From contig JBHLPF010000028.1 in the NCBI GenBank assembly GCA_048939765.1, positions 1 to 17,533 on the forward strand: DNA of 17,533 nucleotides. Direction: 5' to 3'. Position numbers and translations under genes: made by a program. Below the pieces are notes generated by a model. That model had not been told where the DNA came from. It saw nothing but the letters and a program-made list of their open reading frames with translations, and did not search any database. This DNA comes from Promethearchaeota archaeon (GTDB taxonomy: Archaea > Asgardarchaeota > Thorarchaeia > Thorarchaeales > Thorarchaeaceae). Shown in pieces: positions 7,849 through 16,377 of this stretch (the stretch's first letter is position 1; the number at the start of each line of letters is the position of its first letter).

Positions 7849-8376
7849 TCATTCCTCCTTGGCAACCCAGTCGGTTATTGCTTCCTGCATCGCGGCATCG
7901 ACACTGACTGTCCAGATATTCCCTTTCTTCTTCCTCACGGCATCAAGAAACTCGTCATATCGATCGCCATCCATTGTGACAACGACACGTCCTTGCCTAT
8001 CTTCTATAAACGCCTGATGGTACATCTTCTTCGAGGTCCAGTACTCGTGCTGGATATCGCCTTCCTTGAGGCGGGGGTAGAACGGCCACTCACCGGATGG
8101 ATGTGCACGAAACTTCTTTCCTCCAGATTTCCACTTTTTGACTAGGTCCCCAGTGGCTTCCTTGAATCCTGGTCGGAAAGGCCATTGTGGCACATAGCGG
8201 AATCCTTTCTCCCCATCCACCTCGCCTTTGGACCATCTACCAGTATAGACTCGTCCACCTTTATTGTCACAGAATTGCTCCATTACAACCTCGATGAACC
8301 CTTCAAGAGTCAACCCAGCTTCTTCAGCTCGTTCCTTCATGTTCTCTAGCGTTTCGCCTTCGAAATTGACTTCCAT
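7849..8376 (-). CDS. Hypothetical 175-aa protein, possibly with RHH-like domains at both termini and an internal WPFxP repeat
   Basis: Tightly packed in the operon (4-nt gaps) with a GGGGTGA SD. The domain assignment is my pattern inference. Confidence 0.75.
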   Translation of the reverse strand: MEVNFEGETLENMKERAEEAGLTLEGFIEVVMEQFCDNKGGRVYTGRWSKGEVDGEKGFRYVPQWPFRPGFKEATGDLVKKWKSGGKKFRAHPSGEWPFYPRLKEGDIQHEYWTSKKMYHQAFIEDRQGRVVVTMDGDRYDEFLDAVRKKKGNIWTVSVDAAMQEAITDWVAKEE

Positions 8377-12675: not shown

Positions 12676-12776
12676 CCAGGACTAAATCAATGCCGGAGTT
12701 TTCGTACCGGGGGTGTATGATATACCTTCTGCCAATGAGGCAAACTAGACATCAAATAGAGGGGTGCCGAATCCAG

Positions 12777-12802
12777 TTTCATATATGAGACCCAGTATTA
12801 CT
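12777..12802 (+). promoter_or_regulatory. TATA-like box plus palindromic AGTATTACT site (candidate RHH operator)
   Basis: TTTCATATAT at 12777-12786 and AGTA-T-TACT at 12794-12802; AGGTGA SD at 12838-12843. Confidence 0.55.
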
Positions 12803-12850
12803 CGCAATCATATTGATGTGTTACGTGGGTTTCACACAGGTGATACTCAC

Positions 12851-12991
12851 ATGAAGCTCGTAACTCTACACATTCCTGAAACATACGTTGAAGGACTTGA
12901 GAAATTAGTGGACAGTAATCTCTATCCGAATCGTTCTGAGGCAATCAGGATTGCCATTCGTGATCTTCTGAAGAGAGAGCTGTGGAGTTAA
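12851..12991 (+). CDS. 46-aa ribbon-helix-helix (CopG/Arc/MetJ) regulator, CdrS/aCcr1-like, copy 1
   Basis: MKLVTLHIPETYVEGLEKLVDSNLYPNRSEAIRIAIRDLLKRELWS, with an AGGTGA SD 7 nt before the ATG. Confidence 0.93.
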   Translation: MKLVTLHIPETYVEGLEKLVDSNLYPNRSEAIRIAIRDLLKRELWS

Positions 12992-13008
12992 GGGAGTTGA
13001 AGGAATAG

Positions 13009-13149
13009 ATGAAGCTAATCACGCTTCATGTCCCGGAGCAGTATATAGAAGGTCTTGAGAAGCTGGTTGACAACAAGCTCTATCCAAACAGGTCCGAGGC
13101 CATTCGCATTGCTATCAGAGACCTCTTGAAAAGAGAGCTTTGGGGTTAG
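13009..13149 (+). CDS. 46-aa ribbon-helix-helix regulator, CdrS/aCcr1-like, copy 2 (absent from the ORF track)
   Basis: Translated by hand as MKLITLHVPEQYIEGLEKLVDNKLYPNRSEAIRIAIRDLLKRELWG*; 39/46 identical to copy 1; GAAGGA upstream. Confidence 0.93.
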   Translation: MKLITLHVPEQYIEGLEKLVDNKLYPNRSEAIRIAIRDLLKRELWG

Positions 13150-13217
13150 AATTGCACCCGGGTTTGGCGCCAGCGAATAGTAGATACGAGCCCAATTTAG
13201 GCATCCGAGATTGATTG

Positions 13218-13234
13218 AAAAGCGCTTTTTCTTC
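13218..13234 (+). terminator. Palindrome AAAAGCGCTTTT running into a U-rich tract, downstream of the RHH pair
   Basis: 12-bp perfect palindrome at 13218-13229; the sequence from 13226 reads TTTTTCTT. Confidence 0.35.
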
Positions 13235-13384
13235 GGATGCTATGTCAACTCAAAGTCGCGAGTCATGTGCGTACAGATACAAACCTTAATATGGCCTCAT
13301 ATAATATAATCAATGGCAGGCGGGACCCTGCTAGACCTCATGACTCGGAGTTTGGCTGCAACAGCGACCAGGAGCATCATGTGA

Positions 13385-14356
13385 ATGGGACTAGACTCAA
13401 CCGCCATGGCGGGACCTTTGACTGGCAATAATCGCTTTGTGAAGGGATGCCCATGTCTCAAGGAGTTCGGCAATGAGAAGGTCTGCCTGAACAATGATGA
13501 CGTAGTCCCAATTGTCACTATCGCAGTCGACCCAATGTTCCTGGGAGACGCGACATCATCTACAGACCTTGCCAATCTCAAGAGCGATAATGAGAGCATG
13601 TGCTACCTTCTGATTCTTCTTGATGCTGATGCGGATCACACCTACTGTATTAGTCAGGGCCAGAAGATTCGGATTAATTCACAAGATGTCAAGGCTTCGG
13701 AGATTCTAGCAGCACTGCAATTCGTGACAACCACGGAGCAGGCAAGTGATGGCATTGCATGCTCTTCATGCCTCTACAAGTACCTAGTCACACTCGGAGA
13801 AACGTTTGACGATATTCTATCAGAGGCTGAGCGTTCAGAGCTAATCTCTGCGTACGTGAAGAATATCACCTCTCAGATGGCTACAGAGCTAATTGGGAGC
13901 GATGCAACCACAAACCCAGAAGTGATCGATGAACTCGTGAATAGTAGAATCAACAAGCTCCTCACCTTGAGAATAACTTGGGCATCAATTCTGCATGATC
14001 TCAATAGGGACAATGGTGACAGAAAACTCATCGATCTCATTCGTCGCTATAGACAGTTAGCACGATTTGAAACGATATTCCTCTTTCAAGTCTCGACGCT
14101 GAGGGAGTCAGAAGACAAGGAAGTTTCTTTGGGTCTATTGAGATTCATGGTGGATGTTGCAGAACGTATAGTCAGTGTGATTGCATTAATCAGAGATTCG
14201 ACGCATTCTTTGGCAGAGTCAGGTAATGTGCCCAAACACATACATGATCTTTTGGATGAGCAGATTGAAGATCGGAATCGAACAGAAGAGTGGTTCACAA
14301 ACCTAGTGAAACTGCTTAATACGATTGAGATTCGCACGGCACAAAAATCCTCATAA
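13385..14356 (+). CDS. Hypothetical Cys-rich protein, paralogue A (323 aa)
   Basis: Long ORF with full-length similarity to the next gene. AGGAG lies upstream of ATG 13385 (alternative start ATG 13406) and an AT-rich ATATAATATAAT element is at ~13298-13309. Confidence 0.88.
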   Translation: MGLDSTAMAGPLTGNNRFVKGCPCLKEFGNEKVCLNNDDVVPIVTIAVDPMFLGDATSSTDLANLKSDNESMCYLLILLDADADHTYCISQGQKIRINSQDVKASEILAALQFVTTTEQASDGIACSSCLYKYLVTLGETFDDILSEAERSELISAYVKNITSQMATELIGSDATTNPEVIDELVNSRINKLLTLRITWASILHDLNRDNGDRKLIDLIRRYRQLARFETIFLFQVSTLRESEDKEVSLGLLRFMVDVAERIVSVIALIRDSTHSLAESGNVPKHIHDLLDEQIEDRNRTEEWFTNLVKLLNTIEIRTAQKSS

Positions 14357-14428
14357 ACATGCGCGTCACTGAGAAGTGAGGTTAAGTAAGAGACCCACTA
14401 GCTAGAAATCGTAAATGGAGCCGATGGA

Positions 14429-15397
14429 GTGACTGTAGGACTGAATGACGGGCAGAGCCAGAGTCAAATCAAGCTGGTTAGAGGCTGCCCTTGCTACAAA
14501 GTCTTCGGAGACGAGAAGCTTTGCGTTAATGATGACAAGGTCCTAGAGGTTGAAGCCATCGAAATAGACCCCATGCTCTTCTCGTATCACAAGACTAGAG
14601 AAAGCATGAAGGCCGAAGAGGCCATAGATGACAATGTATGCTATACAGCAATCTTCGTCAACCATCCGGATAACAGGGTGTTCTGTATATCTCAAGGATG
14701 GGTCCTAAGAATCCATGGAAGAGATGTTCCGGGCGACGACTTGGAGGATGCACTGCAGTTCCTGTCAACGAAGGACCTTTCAGCGAGTGCGGAGATATGT
14801 TCTGAATGCCTCTACAAATTCCTGCTCACCCTCTCAGACAAGTTTGCAGACACCATGTCGAAGAAGGAGAAGACTGATGAAGTAAAGCGCTATGTAGACA
14901 AATTCTCGCTCATGATAGCTGTGAAAGCCAGTCAGACTGACAAAATGATGGAACCAATAGGCACTGAAGATGATATTGAGGAGGGTGTCGATCACTTTGG
15001 ATTCCTCAGGAAGTATCTGGTCCAGCTCCTTGAACAACAGGAGTCCTGGACCGAGCTATTGAACGAGTTTTCTGATGAAGCAGACACCTGGCTGCAAAAC
15101 ATAGTGGAGATGAGAGTCCGCCTAGCAAGACTGGAGTATCAATTCTACAGTCAGACTCTGCAAATAAGAGACATAAACGACTTCAACATGCTAATCAAAA
15201 TGCTGCAGTTCATTCTCAAGACATCCAGTGACATTCTGAATCTGAATGAACAAATCCATACGGAGATACGGTCTAGAGCTTTCTGCGAGAAAGCCGAATC
15301 AGACGCCAGGTTAGACAATCTGGCATCCTATGCCGACAAGAGCAGAACAGTTGAGCATAACTTCGGGAATATCCTTCAAATCCTCAGTAAGCTATGA
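14429..15397 (+). CDS. Hypothetical Cys-rich protein, paralogue B (322 aa)
   Basis: GTG start with GGAG 8 nt upstream. Shares GCPC, FGxEKxC, DPM, CY, CISQG, ALQF, CSxCLYK and LARxE with paralogue A. Confidence 0.9.
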   Translation: MTVGLNDGQSQSQIKLVRGCPCYKVFGDEKLCVNDDKVLEVEAIEIDPMLFSYHKTRESMKAEEAIDDNVCYTAIFVNHPDNRVFCISQGWVLRIHGRDVPGDDLEDALQFLSTKDLSASAEICSECLYKFLLTLSDKFADTMSKKEKTDEVKRYVDKFSLMIAVKASQTDKMMEPIGTEDDIEEGVDHFGFLRKYLVQLLEQQESWTELLNEFSDEADTWLQNIVEMRVRLARLEYQFYSQTLQIRDINDFNMLIKMLQFILKTSSDILNLNEQIHTEIRSRAFCEKAESDARLDNLASYADKSRTVEHNFGNILQILSKL

Positions 15398-15417
15398 TTT
15401 TGCGGTTCCATGCATCA

Positions 15418-16377
15418 TTACTTGAGGACTCCAAAGGTTTGCACAAGCCAGTCTAGATATAGCTTAACTCCTTGCCTCAGGGAAATCTTTTGCTTCCAGC
15501 CAGCTTTTCGCAATAACCCAACATCTAGATCAGTAATCAGCACATCTCCTGACCAACCACGTTCAGATCCAGTGTAGTGGATTTCAACATCAGTTCCAGT
15601 AAGCTCTTCAACGACCAGTTGAGCAATGTCACTTACCTTCAATCGTTCTCCAGAACCCACATTGACTGGAGTATAACCCGAAGCCATATTCTGAGCTAAT
15701 GCGATAGTTGCATCAGTAGCATCCGTTACATACATGTATGATTTCTCCTGCAAACCGGTTCCAAGGACTTCGAGACGATTCGGATTCTTCTTGAGCTTCT
15801 CATAAAAATCAAAAATGACGCCATGAGTCAATCGGGGTCCAATGATGTTTGCCAGTCTCAGACTTACAGAGTCAAATCCATACAAGGCTGAATACGATGA
15901 GAGATACATTTCCACTGCACACTTTGCCGCCCCATAGTTACTGATGGGCCTAAGGGGAGTCGACTCAGGCGTAGGCAGAATCTCTGGATCACCATAAACA
16001 GTCCCCCCAGAGGATGCAAACACAATCTTGGTAACGTCATTCAGCCTCATAGTTTCTAGTAGCAGGAGGCTTCCTTGCACATTTATATCAAAGTCCAAGA
16101 GGGGTTGAGCGATACTGAGCCTCACGTCAGGCTGTGCGGCAAAATGATAGACAATGTCAATGCTATCCATCACCTTGGAGATATCATCGTCAGAGGTGAT
16201 TGAGCCTTTCACAAATAGGAACTTGACATCTTCTTCATGCTGCCGAAGGTTATCCATCGCTCCAGTTGATAGATCATCTAGCACAACCACCTCATGGTCT
16301 GTCAATAGACGATCAACCAAATGGCTGCCCAGAAATCCTGCCCCACCAGTCACCAATATTCTTGCCATTGCATTCAT
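15418..16377 (-). CDS. NAD-dependent epimerase/dehydratase (UDP-glucose 4-epimerase-like extended SDR)
   Basis: ILVTGGAGFLGSHL, HFAA, FASSGGTVYG and YGAAK motifs. The start may be ATG 16368. Confidence 0.92.
   Translation of the reverse strand: MNAMARILVTGGAGFLGSHLVDRLLTDHEVVVLDDLSTGAMDNLRQHEEDVKFLFVKGSITSDDDISKVMDSIDIVYHFAAQPDVRLSIAQPLLDFDINVQGSLLLLETMRLNDVTKIVFASSGGTVYGDPEILPTPESTPLRPISNYGAAKCAVEMYLSSYSALYGFDSVSLRLANIIGPRLTHGVIFDFYEKLKKNPNRLEVLGTGLQEKSYMYVTDATDATIALAQNMASGYTPVNVGSGERLKVSDIAQLVVEELTGTDVEIHYTGSERGWSGDVLITDLDVGLLRKAGWKQKISLRQGVKLYLDWLVQTFGVLK

What the first reader, a model, noticed from the sequence alone, without database searches (positions are those of the whole stretch)
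13385..15397. Tandem divergent paralogues with seven shared cysteines and a long helical C-terminal half
Seen by manual alignment: VKGCPCLKEFGNEKVCLNND vs VRGCPCYKVFGDEKLCVNDD; DPM; CY; YCISQGQKIRI vs FCISQGWVLRI; ALQF; CSSCLYKYLVTL vs CSECLYKFLLTL; RQLARFE vs VRLARLE; EEWFTNLVKLLNTI vs EHNFGNILQILSKL. Lengths are almost identical (323 and 322 aa) although overall identity is low. No signal peptide or transmembrane segment is evident, so the Cys set (CxC, C, C, C, CxxC) more likely binds Zn or Fe-S than forms disulfides. The C-terminal ~180 aa read as long amphipathic helices. I recognise no family. Inference: an old duplication giving a heterodimer or heteropolymer with a new metal-binding domain.
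Basis: partly seen in the sequence, partly recalled or inferred. Interest (0 to 1): 0.72.

Follow-up and report, generated by a model that had tools for sequence, protein, structure and literature searches.

The report
Asgard-only cysteine-domain protein pair
Two neighbouring, anciently duplicated genes of a Thorarchaeota (Asgard archaeon) genome encode proteins built on a cysteine-rich domain that matches no known family or fold, and in other Asgard lineages the same domain is fused to Arf-type GTPases; its function is unknown.

Summary
ORF A (13385-14356, 323 aa) and ORF B (14429-15397, 322 aa) are paralogues: 27% identity, E 2e-43. All quoted motifs and the seven shared Cys are present.

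No Pfam, NCBIfam, PADLOC or PDB-sequence match was found. A confident model of the N-domain (pLDDT 88) has no fold match: best Z 2.5 of 48,161 chains.

Six Cys are invariant and one is over 90% conserved in 55 diverse sequences.

The family is small and, wherever records are named, Asgard-only. It had 63 representatives among 1.84 billion proteins. It occurs in 139 of 400 Asgard genomes, including 78 of 85 in the window's own family.

Elsewhere the domain stands alone or is fused to Arf GTPases or to a polytopic membrane part.

A-B tandem order holds in 60 of 71 loci. The pair lies behind a CdrS/aCcr1-like RHH gene whose promoter carries an aCcr1-box-like palindrome.

B evolves more slowly than A.

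The scan found this gene trio before on other DNA (e1-360197), and my reading agrees with it.

The parts
12794..12802 (.). Palindrome AGTATTACT in the promoter region of the first RHH gene; fits the aCcr1-box as printed in PMC9976878
   Evidence: Exact match at this place. GTATTAC occurs in 55 of 68 and GTANTAC in 66 of 68 upstream regions of the RHH gene across loci, and 41 of the 55 lie 54-58 nt before the ATG. Shuffles give a mean of 1.2 and a maximum of 5. The box is printed as A(T/G)G(A)TA(G)A(T/G)TACN in section 21 of PMC9976878.
12851..12991 (+). RHH gene 1 (46 aa), CdrS/aCcr1-like ribbon-helix-helix regulator
   Evidence: Pfam RHH_1 E 1.1e-08, 35.2 bits against a cut-off of 20.5. NCBIfam CdrS NF058555 E 4.6e-14, 52 bits, below its cut-off of 100. 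aCcr1_fam E 5.7e-05, below its cut-off.
13009..13149 (+). RHH gene 2 (46 aa), paralogue of RHH 1
   Evidence: Pfam RHH_1 E 1.7e-08. CdrS model E 3.7e-14. It is 85-87% identical to RHH 1. Only 12 of 68 loci have two copies, 55 have one and 1 has four.
13201..13240 (+). Hairpin GCAUCCGAG...CUUCGGAUGC with a U-run in its loop, after RHH 2; possible terminator
   Evidence: The stem is predicted in the fold of 13150-13384, but the whole stretch folds no better than shuffles (z -0.5). Words from it recur across loci (TTGAAAAG in 22 of 68, ATCCGAGA in 14 of 68). No Rfam family matched.
13281..13292 (+). AAACCTTAATAT, promoter-like (BRE/TATA-type) element about 95 nt before the start of gene A
   Evidence: Read. 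The pattern AA-N2-4-TT[ACT]ATAT occurs in 24 of 68 RHH-to-A spacers and in 0 of 68 RHH upstream regions; shuffles give a mean of 0.9 and a maximum of 4. That it acts as a promoter is inference.
13385..14356 (+). Gene A, 323 aa: Cys-rich N-domain (about residues 17-145, 13433-13819) plus a helical C-half
   Evidence: Orthologues have a median 44% identity across 903 genome pairs.
14417..14420 (+). GGAG, Shine-Dalgarno-like, 8 nt before the GTG of gene B; the A-B gap is 72 nt
   Evidence: Read directly. Co-transcription of A and B is inferred.
14429..15397 (+). Gene B, 322 aa: Cys-rich N-domain (about residues 15-143, 14471-14857) plus a helical C-half; the slower-evolving paralogue
   Evidence: Orthologues have a median 68% identity across 903 genome pairs, and B is higher than A in 898 of them.

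Best explanation
A and B are a vertically inherited gene pair of the Thorarchaeota family that holds this genome.

Shown:
- Each protein joins a roughly 125-residue N-terminal domain to a roughly 180-residue bundle of long antiparallel helices.
- The N-domain has six invariant cysteines and a seventh that is nearly invariant.
- The N-domain has no detectable relative in sequence or fold.
- It is a mobile module found in several Asgard lineages.

Inferred:
- The cysteines hold metal (Zn most likely, an Fe-S cluster possible) in a cytoplasmic protein.
- The N-domain is a docking or sensing module.
- A and B pair through their helical halves into a heteromer. B would be the constrained core subunit and A the fast-evolving partner.

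In another Asgard family the same domain sits at the C-terminus of Arf-family GTPases or behind a polytopic membrane part. I therefore think its job is protein docking or regulation in GTPase-type or membrane-proximal signalling.

In Thorarchaeota the pair lies behind a CdrS/aCcr1-like RHH regulator with its own operator-like box. This hints at, but does not show, cell-cycle-linked expression.
For: - Paralogy: E 2e-43.
- Cys conservation: C8, C20, C59, C74, C112 and C115 are invariant and C10 is at least 90% conserved in 55 sequences with a mean column identity of 38%. The same holds across both paralogue families.
- No signal peptide or TM segment. Fusion to cytoplasmic Arf GTPases: Pfam Arf E 1.2e-43, 1.2e-44 and 6.4e-39.
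- N-domain model: pLDDT 88, pTM 0.82. CxxC sits at the N-terminus of helix 113-130 and CPC sits between strands 2-6 and 11-14. This placement is typical of zinc ligands (my knowledge).
- No fold match: Foldseek PDB best E 0.4. VIA wide best Z 2.5, with 0 of 48,161 chains at Z>=5. Second look best Z 3.0. BFVD best E 0.13.
- Co-retention: A then B in 60 of 71 loci. Two or more domain matches in 71 of 86 genomes of the family, own genome included, one match in 8 and none in 7 (my count).
- A and B are separate clades (A 48 rows, support 99; B 61 rows, support 80).
- Rate asymmetry: 44% against 68% median identity.
- The A-B gap is 72 nt with GGAG before B.
- RHH context.
Against: - No coordinates were available, so Cys clustering is untested. 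No metal or A-B contact is shown.
- The second Cys of CPC is missing in distant members, so seven ligands are not universal.
- Some loci keep only one paralogue. L050 has B only. L065 and L066 have A followed directly by YkgJ. The sister-family genome G311 has a single 317-aa copy. An obligate A-B heteromer is therefore not universal.
- Seven of 85 family genomes have no match, one of them rated 93% complete.
- The GTANTAC box is in the RHH promoter but in only 2 of 68 RHH-to-A spacers, and A seems to have its own promoter. Regulation of A-B by the RHH is not shown.
- Synteny is conserved for more than 8 kb beyond B in 30-33 of 34 long loci. Adjacency alone is therefore weak evidence of a functional link.
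- The full-length model is only moderate (pLDDT 73).
- The helical half matches only generic bundles (Z below 10).
Confidence: 0.45

Rival explanations
1. Fe-S or redox-sensing proteins. The conserved cysteines would ligate an Fe-S cluster or form a thiol switch, and A-B would report redox or iron status, perhaps to the neighbouring RHH regulator.
For: - There are six to seven invariant Cys.
- The host is an anaerobic sediment organism; DNA holders are sediment, mangrove and marsh metagenomes.
- One distant member carries a weak thioredoxin-like C-terminal part (E 3e-4, below the cut-off).
- Another stand-alone copy lies next to a thioredoxin-V4R protein.
- A conserved neighbour on the opposite strand is a CxxCxxCC putative Zn/Fe-chelating protein.
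Against: - No classical Fe-S spacing is present; the spacing is CxC-x9-C-x38-C-x14-C-x37-CxxC.
- No Pfam Fe-S or CDGSH model hit at E<=1.
- No fold match to Fe-S proteins was listed.
- The thioredoxin hits are weak or concern only neighbouring genes.
Confidence: 0.2
2. Cell-division or chromosome-segregation factors under CdrS/aCcr1-type control. A-B would occupy, behind the RHH gene, the place that ftsZ2 holds in euryarchaeal cdrS loci, and would act in the cell cycle. The ESM Atlas lead to kinetochore DSN1/MIS13 belongs under this reading.
For: - The best NCBIfam model for the RHH is CdrS.
- The box in the RHH promoter fits the aCcr1-box.
- A third RHH paralogue of this genome lies directly upstream of an FtsZ gene (C64).
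- cdrS-ftsZ2 synteny is described in passages of PMC9976878.
- For B, 24 of 30 Atlas hits share the MIS13 set, with a top score of 0.92 and 195 of 256 shared features.
Against: - The box is absent from the A promoter region (2 of 68).
- Other RHH paralogues of this genome precede unrelated genes.
- Pfam MIS13 gave no hit at E<=1.
- No Mis12-complex chain appeared in the listed fold matches.
- The Atlas states that scores of 0.9 or more arise for 4-10% of shuffled proteins.
- The N-domain alone gave no usable Atlas hit.
Confidence: 0.15
3. Two independent homo-oligomers. After duplication A and B took separate roles and do not contact each other.
For: - Some genomes keep only one of the two: L050, L065, L066 and G311.
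- Rates are very different, and the C-halves are only 25% identical between A and B.
- Stand-alone domains work without a partner of this kind.
Against: - Strict A-then-B order holds in 60 of 71 loci.
- The spacer is short and B has a Shine-Dalgarno-like motif.
- The helix motif R..LAR.E..F..Q and the C-terminal F.N...L are invariant or nearly so in both paralogues.
Confidence: 0.15
4. A toxin-antitoxin or defence cassette, with the RHH as a ParD-type antitoxin and A/B as effectors. Alternatively, divergent TFB/Brf1 transcription factors, as one JGI record labels a B orthologue.
For: - Some sources name the RHH a 'ParD family antitoxin'.
- P0229 is labelled TFIIIB Brf1/TFIIB by JGI.
- Stand-alone domain genes in some Thorarchaeota lie beside a Metallophos nuclease and an SMC-like ATPase that matches PADLOC mad3 at 1.6e-33.
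Against: - A, B and the RHH have no PADLOC hit.
- The trio lies at one syntenic place in the family and its trees are clade-wise congruent. That fits a core gene set, not a mobile cassette.
- No TFIIB or TF_Zn_Ribbon Pfam hit at E<=1.
- The Cys spacing is not that of a zinc ribbon.
- The helices are about 30 residues long, unlike cyclin repeats.
Confidence: 0.04

Closest known systems
CdrS (Halobacteria) and aCcr1 (Sulfolobales) RHH cell-cycle regulators; this concerns the neighbouring RHH genes, not A/B
   Same: - A small ribbon-helix-helix protein.
- CdrS is the best-scoring NCBIfam model (4.6e-14).
- A 9-bp palindrome fitting the printed aCcr1-box lies in its own promoter at a fixed distance.
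- A paralogue lies upstream of ftsZ in the same genome.
   Different: - Scores are below both curated cut-offs (52 against 100 bits; 22.9 against 60 bits).
- The protein is 46 aa, against a 61-position CdrS model.
- It is followed here by A-B instead of ftsZ2 or cdvA.
- No function has been tested.
Treble-clef / zinc-knuckle type Cys4 zinc sites (general structural class; recalled knowledge)
   Same: - A CxxC at the N-terminus of a helix, and a Cys-bearing turn between two strands.
- Invariant Cys in a cytoplasmic protein.
   Different: - The ligands are spread over about 108 residues.
- There are six to seven Cys, not four.
- No zinc-finger Pfam model hit.
- No fold match was listed.
ArfGAP zinc-finger domain (PF01412): a Cys-rich domain of about 130 aa that works with Arf GTPases
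   Same: - Similar size.
- Cys-rich.
- Physically tied to Arf-family GTPases through fusion in one Asgard family.
   Different: - No PF01412 hit at E<=1.
- No CX2C-X16-CX2C spacing (the spacing is recalled; the sequence is).
- No ArfGAP chain appeared among the listed fold matches.
- The resemblance is one of possible role only.
Mis12-complex subunit DSN1/MIS13 (PF08202)
   Same: - Length of about 300 aa with a long helical C-terminal part.
- Paired paralogous subunits (recalled knowledge).
- ESM Atlas feature score 0.92.
   Different: - No Pfam hit.
- No fold match was listed.
- DSN1 has no Cys-rich N-domain (recalled knowledge).
- The Atlas score lies within the range reached by shuffled proteins.

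Membership tests
TFIIB/Brf1 (JGI label on orthologue P0229) | N-terminal zinc ribbon (Pfam TF_Zn_Ribbon; CxxC-x15-17-CxxC, spacing recalled) | tested here: not met
   hmmscan of A and B against Pfam at E<=1 lists only MatP_C (0.087) and DPC2 (0.06). The Cys spacing is CxC-x9-C-x38-C-x14-C-x37-CxxC.
TFIIB/Brf1 (JGI label on orthologue P0229) | Two cyclin-like helical repeats (Pfam TFIIB) | tested here: inconclusive
   No Pfam hit. No TFIIB or cyclin chain among the listed fold matches of the full model. Absence from a list does not exclude a fold.
MIS13/DSN1 kinetochore family (PF08202) | Match to the family profile | tested here: not met
   No hit at E<=1. No PDB-sequence hit with profile A2 at E<=10 other than calmodulin and unrelated chains.
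MIS13/DSN1 kinetochore family (PF08202) | Head domain plus coiled-coil stalk fold, as in solved Mis12 complexes | tested here: inconclusive
   Not among the 50 rows listed by Foldseek or VIA-align. Only the Atlas feature score of 0.92 points there.
ArfGAP domain (PF01412) | Profile match and C4 zinc finger with a catalytic Arg | tested here: not met
   No Pfam hit. The spacing is absent from the sequence. GAP activity is not testable here.
Longin / roadblock domains (my own idea, from the strand-helix order and the GTPase link) | Alpha-beta-alpha sandwich fold of longin or roadblock proteins | tested here: inconclusive
   The N-domain model (pLDDT 88) gave best Z 2.5 of 48,161 chains and no longin or roadblock chain in the lists. 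I dropped the idea.
CdrS (NCBIfam NF058555), for the RHH genes | Score at or above the curated cut-off of 100 bits | tested here: not met
   52.2 and 52.5 bits. It is the best-scoring model, but the RHH is not an equivalog member.
aCcr1 family (NCBIfam NF053762), for the RHH genes | Score at or above 60 bits | tested here: not met
   22.9 and 24.8 bits.
aCcr1/CdrS-type regulators, functional class | Palindromic 9-bp box in target promoters | tested here: met
   AGTATTACT at 12794-12802 fits the box printed in PMC9976878. GTANTAC is in 66 of 68 RHH upstream regions but in 2 of 68 RHH-to-A spacers. Binding was not tested.
Pfam RHH_1 (PF01402), for the RHH genes | Score above the gathering cut-off of 20.5 bits | tested here: met
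   35.2 and 34.6 bits.
Known anti-phage defence or TA cassettes | Match of A, B or the RHH to a PADLOC model | tested here: not met
   0 families for A, B and RHH 1 at E<=0.01.
   Structure prediction returns no coordinates. Only conservation and the positions of the Cys in secondary structure could be read.

The most novel reading that the evidence does not exclude
The Cys-rich domain is an Asgard-specific partner module of Arf-family GTPases, acting as an effector, GAP/GEF-like regulator or nucleotide-state sensor. The Thorarchaeota A-B pair would then be a heterodimeric scaffold that couples such GTPase signalling to the CdrS/aCcr1-type cell-cycle circuit. It would be a regulator class of pre-eukaryotic small-GTPase systems with no eukaryotic or bacterial counterpart.
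Probability: 0.12. Interest if true: 0.85.

Novelty: categorically new. Interest (0 to 1): 0.62.

Why it matters
Asgard archaea are the closest known relatives of eukaryotes, and how their many Arf- and Rab-like GTPases are regulated is open.

This protein domain is confined to Asgard lineages wherever records are named. It has invariant cysteines and no known fold, and it is repeatedly fused to Arf GTPases. That makes it a concrete, testable candidate for a lineage-specific piece of that machinery.

In Thorarchaeota it is a near-universal duplicated gene pair beside a CdrS/aCcr1-like cell-cycle regulator, so it may also open a way into Asgard cell-cycle control.

At the least it is a new domain family, and possibly a new fold, that merits a structure.

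Tried and rejected
Ideas tested and rejected, or searches that led nowhere:

1. Longin/roadblock idea for the N-domain. No fold support.
2. TFB/Brf1 label. No Pfam support.
3. DSN1/MIS13 lead from the ESM Atlas. There was no Pfam or PDB-sequence support.
4. Di-iron (ScdA/YtfE-like) reading of the helical half. It came from VIA rows at Z 8.5-9.3. I rejected it because no His/Glu/Asp ligand set is among the invariant columns and such Z values are ordinary for helix bundles.
5. CDGSH-like reading of CxC-x9-C (the CDGSH motif is recalled). No Pfam hit, and the second Cys is not kept in distant members.
6. AGTATTACT as a genome-wide regulon mark. There are 27 sites in the genome against 55 for the reversed control. 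The site near the C27 FtsZ-like gene lies inside the upstream coding region.
7. RNA structure in the RHH-to-A spacer. z -0.5 and no Rfam family in the window.
8. Expression. No RNA holder was listed for 12700-15450.
9. A homologue of the ~1100-aa neighbour of the distant copies in the own genome. Not found with that query.
10. Literature. Four searches, and term look-ups in passages of 10.1101/2024.02.28.582541 and PMC11914678, gave no description of this domain or of an Arf-Cys-domain fusion. Supplementary Dataset D8 of PMC11914678 lists extra domains of Asgard Arfs and may bear on that claim.
11. Phylogeny. The treekit careful tree did not finish, so a quick tree was used. The row G082_f13_307aa has a branch of 9.9 and its placement is unsafe.

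Rows dropped before counts:
- One search kept 110 of 134 gene hits, those with both GCP and CxxCLY[KR].
- One search used 38 of those 110, plus the 2 window copies and 15 stand-alone proteins.
- One search used 109 of 134 hits (coverage of at least 290 residues, no X or stop), plus the 2 window proteins and 2 outgroups.
- One search used the 43 loci that hold both full-length proteins.
Full report
**What is there**

The window is a Thorarchaeota (Asgard) contig. All close homologues that carry a name are from Thorarchaeota MAGs or from records labelled Promethearchaeota or Hermodarchaeota.

ORF A (13385-14356, 323 aa) and ORF B (14429-15397, GTG start, 322 aa) lie 72 nt apart on the + strand, with GGAG 8 nt before B. 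BLASTP gives 27% identity and E 2e-43.

A has exactly seven Cys. B has the same seven plus one non-conserved Cys. Neither protein has a hydrophobic N-terminus or a TM-like stretch, and both are acidic.

**No known family**

Every library searched came back empty:

- Pfam at E<=1 gave only noise: MatP_C at 0.087 and DPC2 at 0.06.
- NCBIfam gave nothing.
- PADLOC gave nothing.
- phmmer against PDB sequences gave nothing for A, and aspartate aminotransferase at E 1.4 for B.
- Profiles A2 and A3 against PDB sequences gave nothing below E 0.15.

A profile of both paralogue families, run against 1.84 billion representative proteins, found only 63 proteins at E<=0.001. One JGI record calls a B orthologue TFIIB/Brf1. 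Nothing supports that label.

**Structure**

The full-length A model is moderate (pLDDT 73). It has a strand-rich N-terminal part followed by five long helices. The helical half matched only generic bundles, with Z below 10. The tool itself rates that as ordinary for helix bundles.

I then modelled the N-domain alone, using B residues 13-143 and alignment A3. A3 holds 55 sequences from both paralogues and from distant stand-alone proteins. The model has pLDDT 88 and pTM 0.82. It has no fold match:

| Search | Best result |
|---|---|
| Foldseek against PDB | E 0.4 |
| VIA-align against 48,161 representative chains | Z 2.5; none at Z>=5 |
| Second look at 846 chains | Z 3.0 (part of HslV, 84 residues, rmsd 3.7) |
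| BFVD | E 0.13 |

The tool notes that models without a clear match typically still reach Z 7-8, so this result is unusually blank. AlphaFold DB was not available. The 'new fold' reading rests on a prediction.

**Cysteines**

In A3 the invariant columns are C8, P9, C20, N22, C59, C74, C112, C115 and Y117. C10 is at least 90% conserved. The same residues are invariant across both paralogue families.

In the more distant members, CPC reads CPF, CPL or CPM, so the core set is six Cys.

In the model, CxxC sits at the N-terminus of helix 113-130, and C8/C10 sit in the turn between strands 2-6 and 11-14. This is typical of zinc ligands (my knowledge). I could not measure distances because no coordinates are returned. 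Metal binding remains an inference.

**Distribution and architectures**

The domain profile matched 139 of 400 Asgard genomes:

| Asgard family | Genomes with a match |
|---|---|
| Window's own family | 78 of 85 |
| Sister family of the same order | 1 of 1 |
| f8 | 27 of 31 |
| f13 | 12 of 12 |
| f15 | 5 of 5 |
| f16 | 6 of 6 |
| f30 | 5 of 5 |
| Largest family (f22) | 0 of 135 |

Outside Thorarchaeota the domain takes several forms:

- It stands alone, at 119-160 aa.
- It sits at the C-terminus of Arf-family GTPases: P0297, L094 and L099, with Pfam Arf at 1.2e-43, 1.2e-44 and 6.4e-39. A cluster member of P0297 is named as a Heimdallarchaeota ARF-family protein.
- It sits behind about seven TM-like segments in a 375-aa protein.
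- It precedes a helical tail, as in Thorarchaeota: L093 (307 aa) and P0287.
- It precedes a weak thioredoxin-like part (E 3e-4, below the cut-off).

Some Thorarchaeota genera have extra stand-alone copies. The window's genome has only A and B.

**Locus**

Among 71 species-level loci:

- 60 show A followed by B.
- 2 show B followed by a third, very divergent paralogue (L056, L057).
- 1 has B only, with flanks on both sides (L050).
- 1 starts at B (L060).
- 2 have A followed directly by YkgJ (L065, L066).
- 5 end in or just after A.

Sixty-seven loci, plus the window, have an RHH gene upstream on the same strand. Fifty-five have one copy, 12 have two and 1 has four.

The unit is flanked by opposite-strand genes. 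ADP-forming acetyl-CoA synthetase and a DRTGG protein lie on one side. An epimerase (in some loci) and a CxxCxxCC protein lie on the other.

Synteny continues for more than 8 kb beyond B in 30-33 of 34 long loci, so neighbourhood alone says little. The sister-family genome G311 has one 317-aa copy at the same place and no RHH hit.

**The RHH genes**

Both 46-aa proteins pass Pfam RHH_1. Their best NCBIfam model is CdrS (52 bits, cut-off 100), and aCcr1_fam scores 23-25 bits (cut-off 60). They are therefore CdrS/aCcr1-like but are not members by the curated thresholds.

The palindrome AGTATTACT at 12794-12802 fits the aCcr1-box as printed in section 21 of PMC9976878. Across loci:

- GTATTAC is in 55 of 68 RHH upstream regions, and 41 of those sites lie 54-58 nt before the ATG.
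- GTANTAC is in 66 of 68 RHH upstream regions.
- GTANTAC is in only 2 of 68 RHH-to-A spacers.

The RHH-to-A spacer instead holds a TATA-like word. AA-N2-4-TT[ACT]ATAT occurs in 24 of 68 spacers, against a shuffle mean of 0.9. It also holds a hairpin with a U-run.

I therefore read this as an autoregulated RHH gene followed by a separately promoted A-B unit. A regulatory link between them is possible but not shown.

The genome has five such RHH genes. One lies directly upstream of an FtsZ gene. Two others precede unrelated genes.

**Evolution**

In a quick maximum-likelihood tree of 113 rows, A forms a clade (48 rows, support 99) with the single G311 copy as sister (support 98). B forms a clade (61 rows, support 80). 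Long branches make the deep order unsafe.

Across 903 pairs of 43 genomes, median identity is 44.3% for A and 68.4% for B, and B is higher in 898 pairs.

| Protein | N-domain median identity | C-half median identity |
|---|---|---|
| A | 54% | 37% |
| B | 70% | 68% |

Within a genome, A and B share 37% identity in the N-domain and 25% in the C-half.

**Reading**

I commit to the following.

- Shown: a conserved, duplicated, cytoplasmic protein pair built on a new Asgard Cys-rich domain.
- Inferred: the domain binds metal, and the pair forms a heteromer with B as the constrained core.
- Inferred from the fusions: the domain docks or regulates in GTPase-type or membrane-proximal signalling.

Rival readings are scored in their own section: an Fe-S or redox sensor, a cell-cycle factor, independent homo-oligomers, and a TA cassette or TFB.

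**Earlier scan notes**

I had noted the CdrS idea before I opened the notes. The notes added aCcr1 and the palindrome, and I tested both. A follow-up report on another genome (e1-360197) reached the same overall reading of the gene trio.

Noticed in passing
window 12851-13149; own genome C64:47445-47579, C45:4627-4761, C87:51856-51990: The genome has five CdrS/aCcr1-like RHH genes (62-100% identical to RHH 1). The C64 copy lies directly upstream of an FtsZ gene. The C45 copy precedes a 197-aa acidic protein. The C87 copy precedes a membrane protein plus an ABC ATPase and lies beside a small GTPase gene.
   Followed up: partly
L056:9010-9903, L057:9031-9897: In two Thorarchaeota loci the order is RHH, B, then a third very divergent paralogue (36-37% identical to B, 23% to A) in place of A-then-B. 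These copies form their own long branch.
   Followed up: partly
L100:1794-5396, L103:4938-7822, L101, L102: Extra stand-alone Cys-domain genes of some Thorarchaeota lie beside a 235-240-aa unknown protein, a calcineurin-like phosphoesterase and an SMC-like ATPase. The ATPase matches PADLOC mad3 at 1.6e-33. This may be a defence-type module.
   Followed up: partly
L095:2708-5800 and L098:2038-5421: In two other Asgard families the Cys-domain gene lies next to homologous proteins of about 1030 and 1127 aa. They are 25% identical over their full length (E 1e-81 to 1e-96) and have no Pfam or NCBIfam match. No homologue was found in the window's genome with that query.
   Followed up: partly
L097:1589-5911; own genome C21:22251-26156: In a third Asgard family the stand-alone Cys-domain gene follows, on the same strand, a 1440-aa protein with a TrmB wHTH and a long helical (apolipoprotein-like) region. 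BLASTP with low-complexity filtering found no similarity between the two.
   Followed up: partly
own genome C21:19401-20863 (beyond the window's end): A 152-aa Rab-like protein with a polybasic N-terminus and a 312-aa acidic protein lie about 4-5.5 kb downstream of B. Both are syntenic in 32-33 of 34 long Thorarchaeota loci.
   Followed up: partly
L062:6175-7751: One locus carries four RHH copies upstream of A, three of them matched only from residue 10 or 12 onward.
   Followed up: no
window 7849-8376 (-): A 175-aa ORF with no Pfam match lies between a nitroreductase gene and an SCP2-like ORF.
   Followed up: no
window 13201-13240: A hairpin with a U-run lies after RHH 2. Words from it recur across loci (TTGAAAAG in 22 of 68). 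It may be a terminator or a conserved 3' element.
   Followed up: partly
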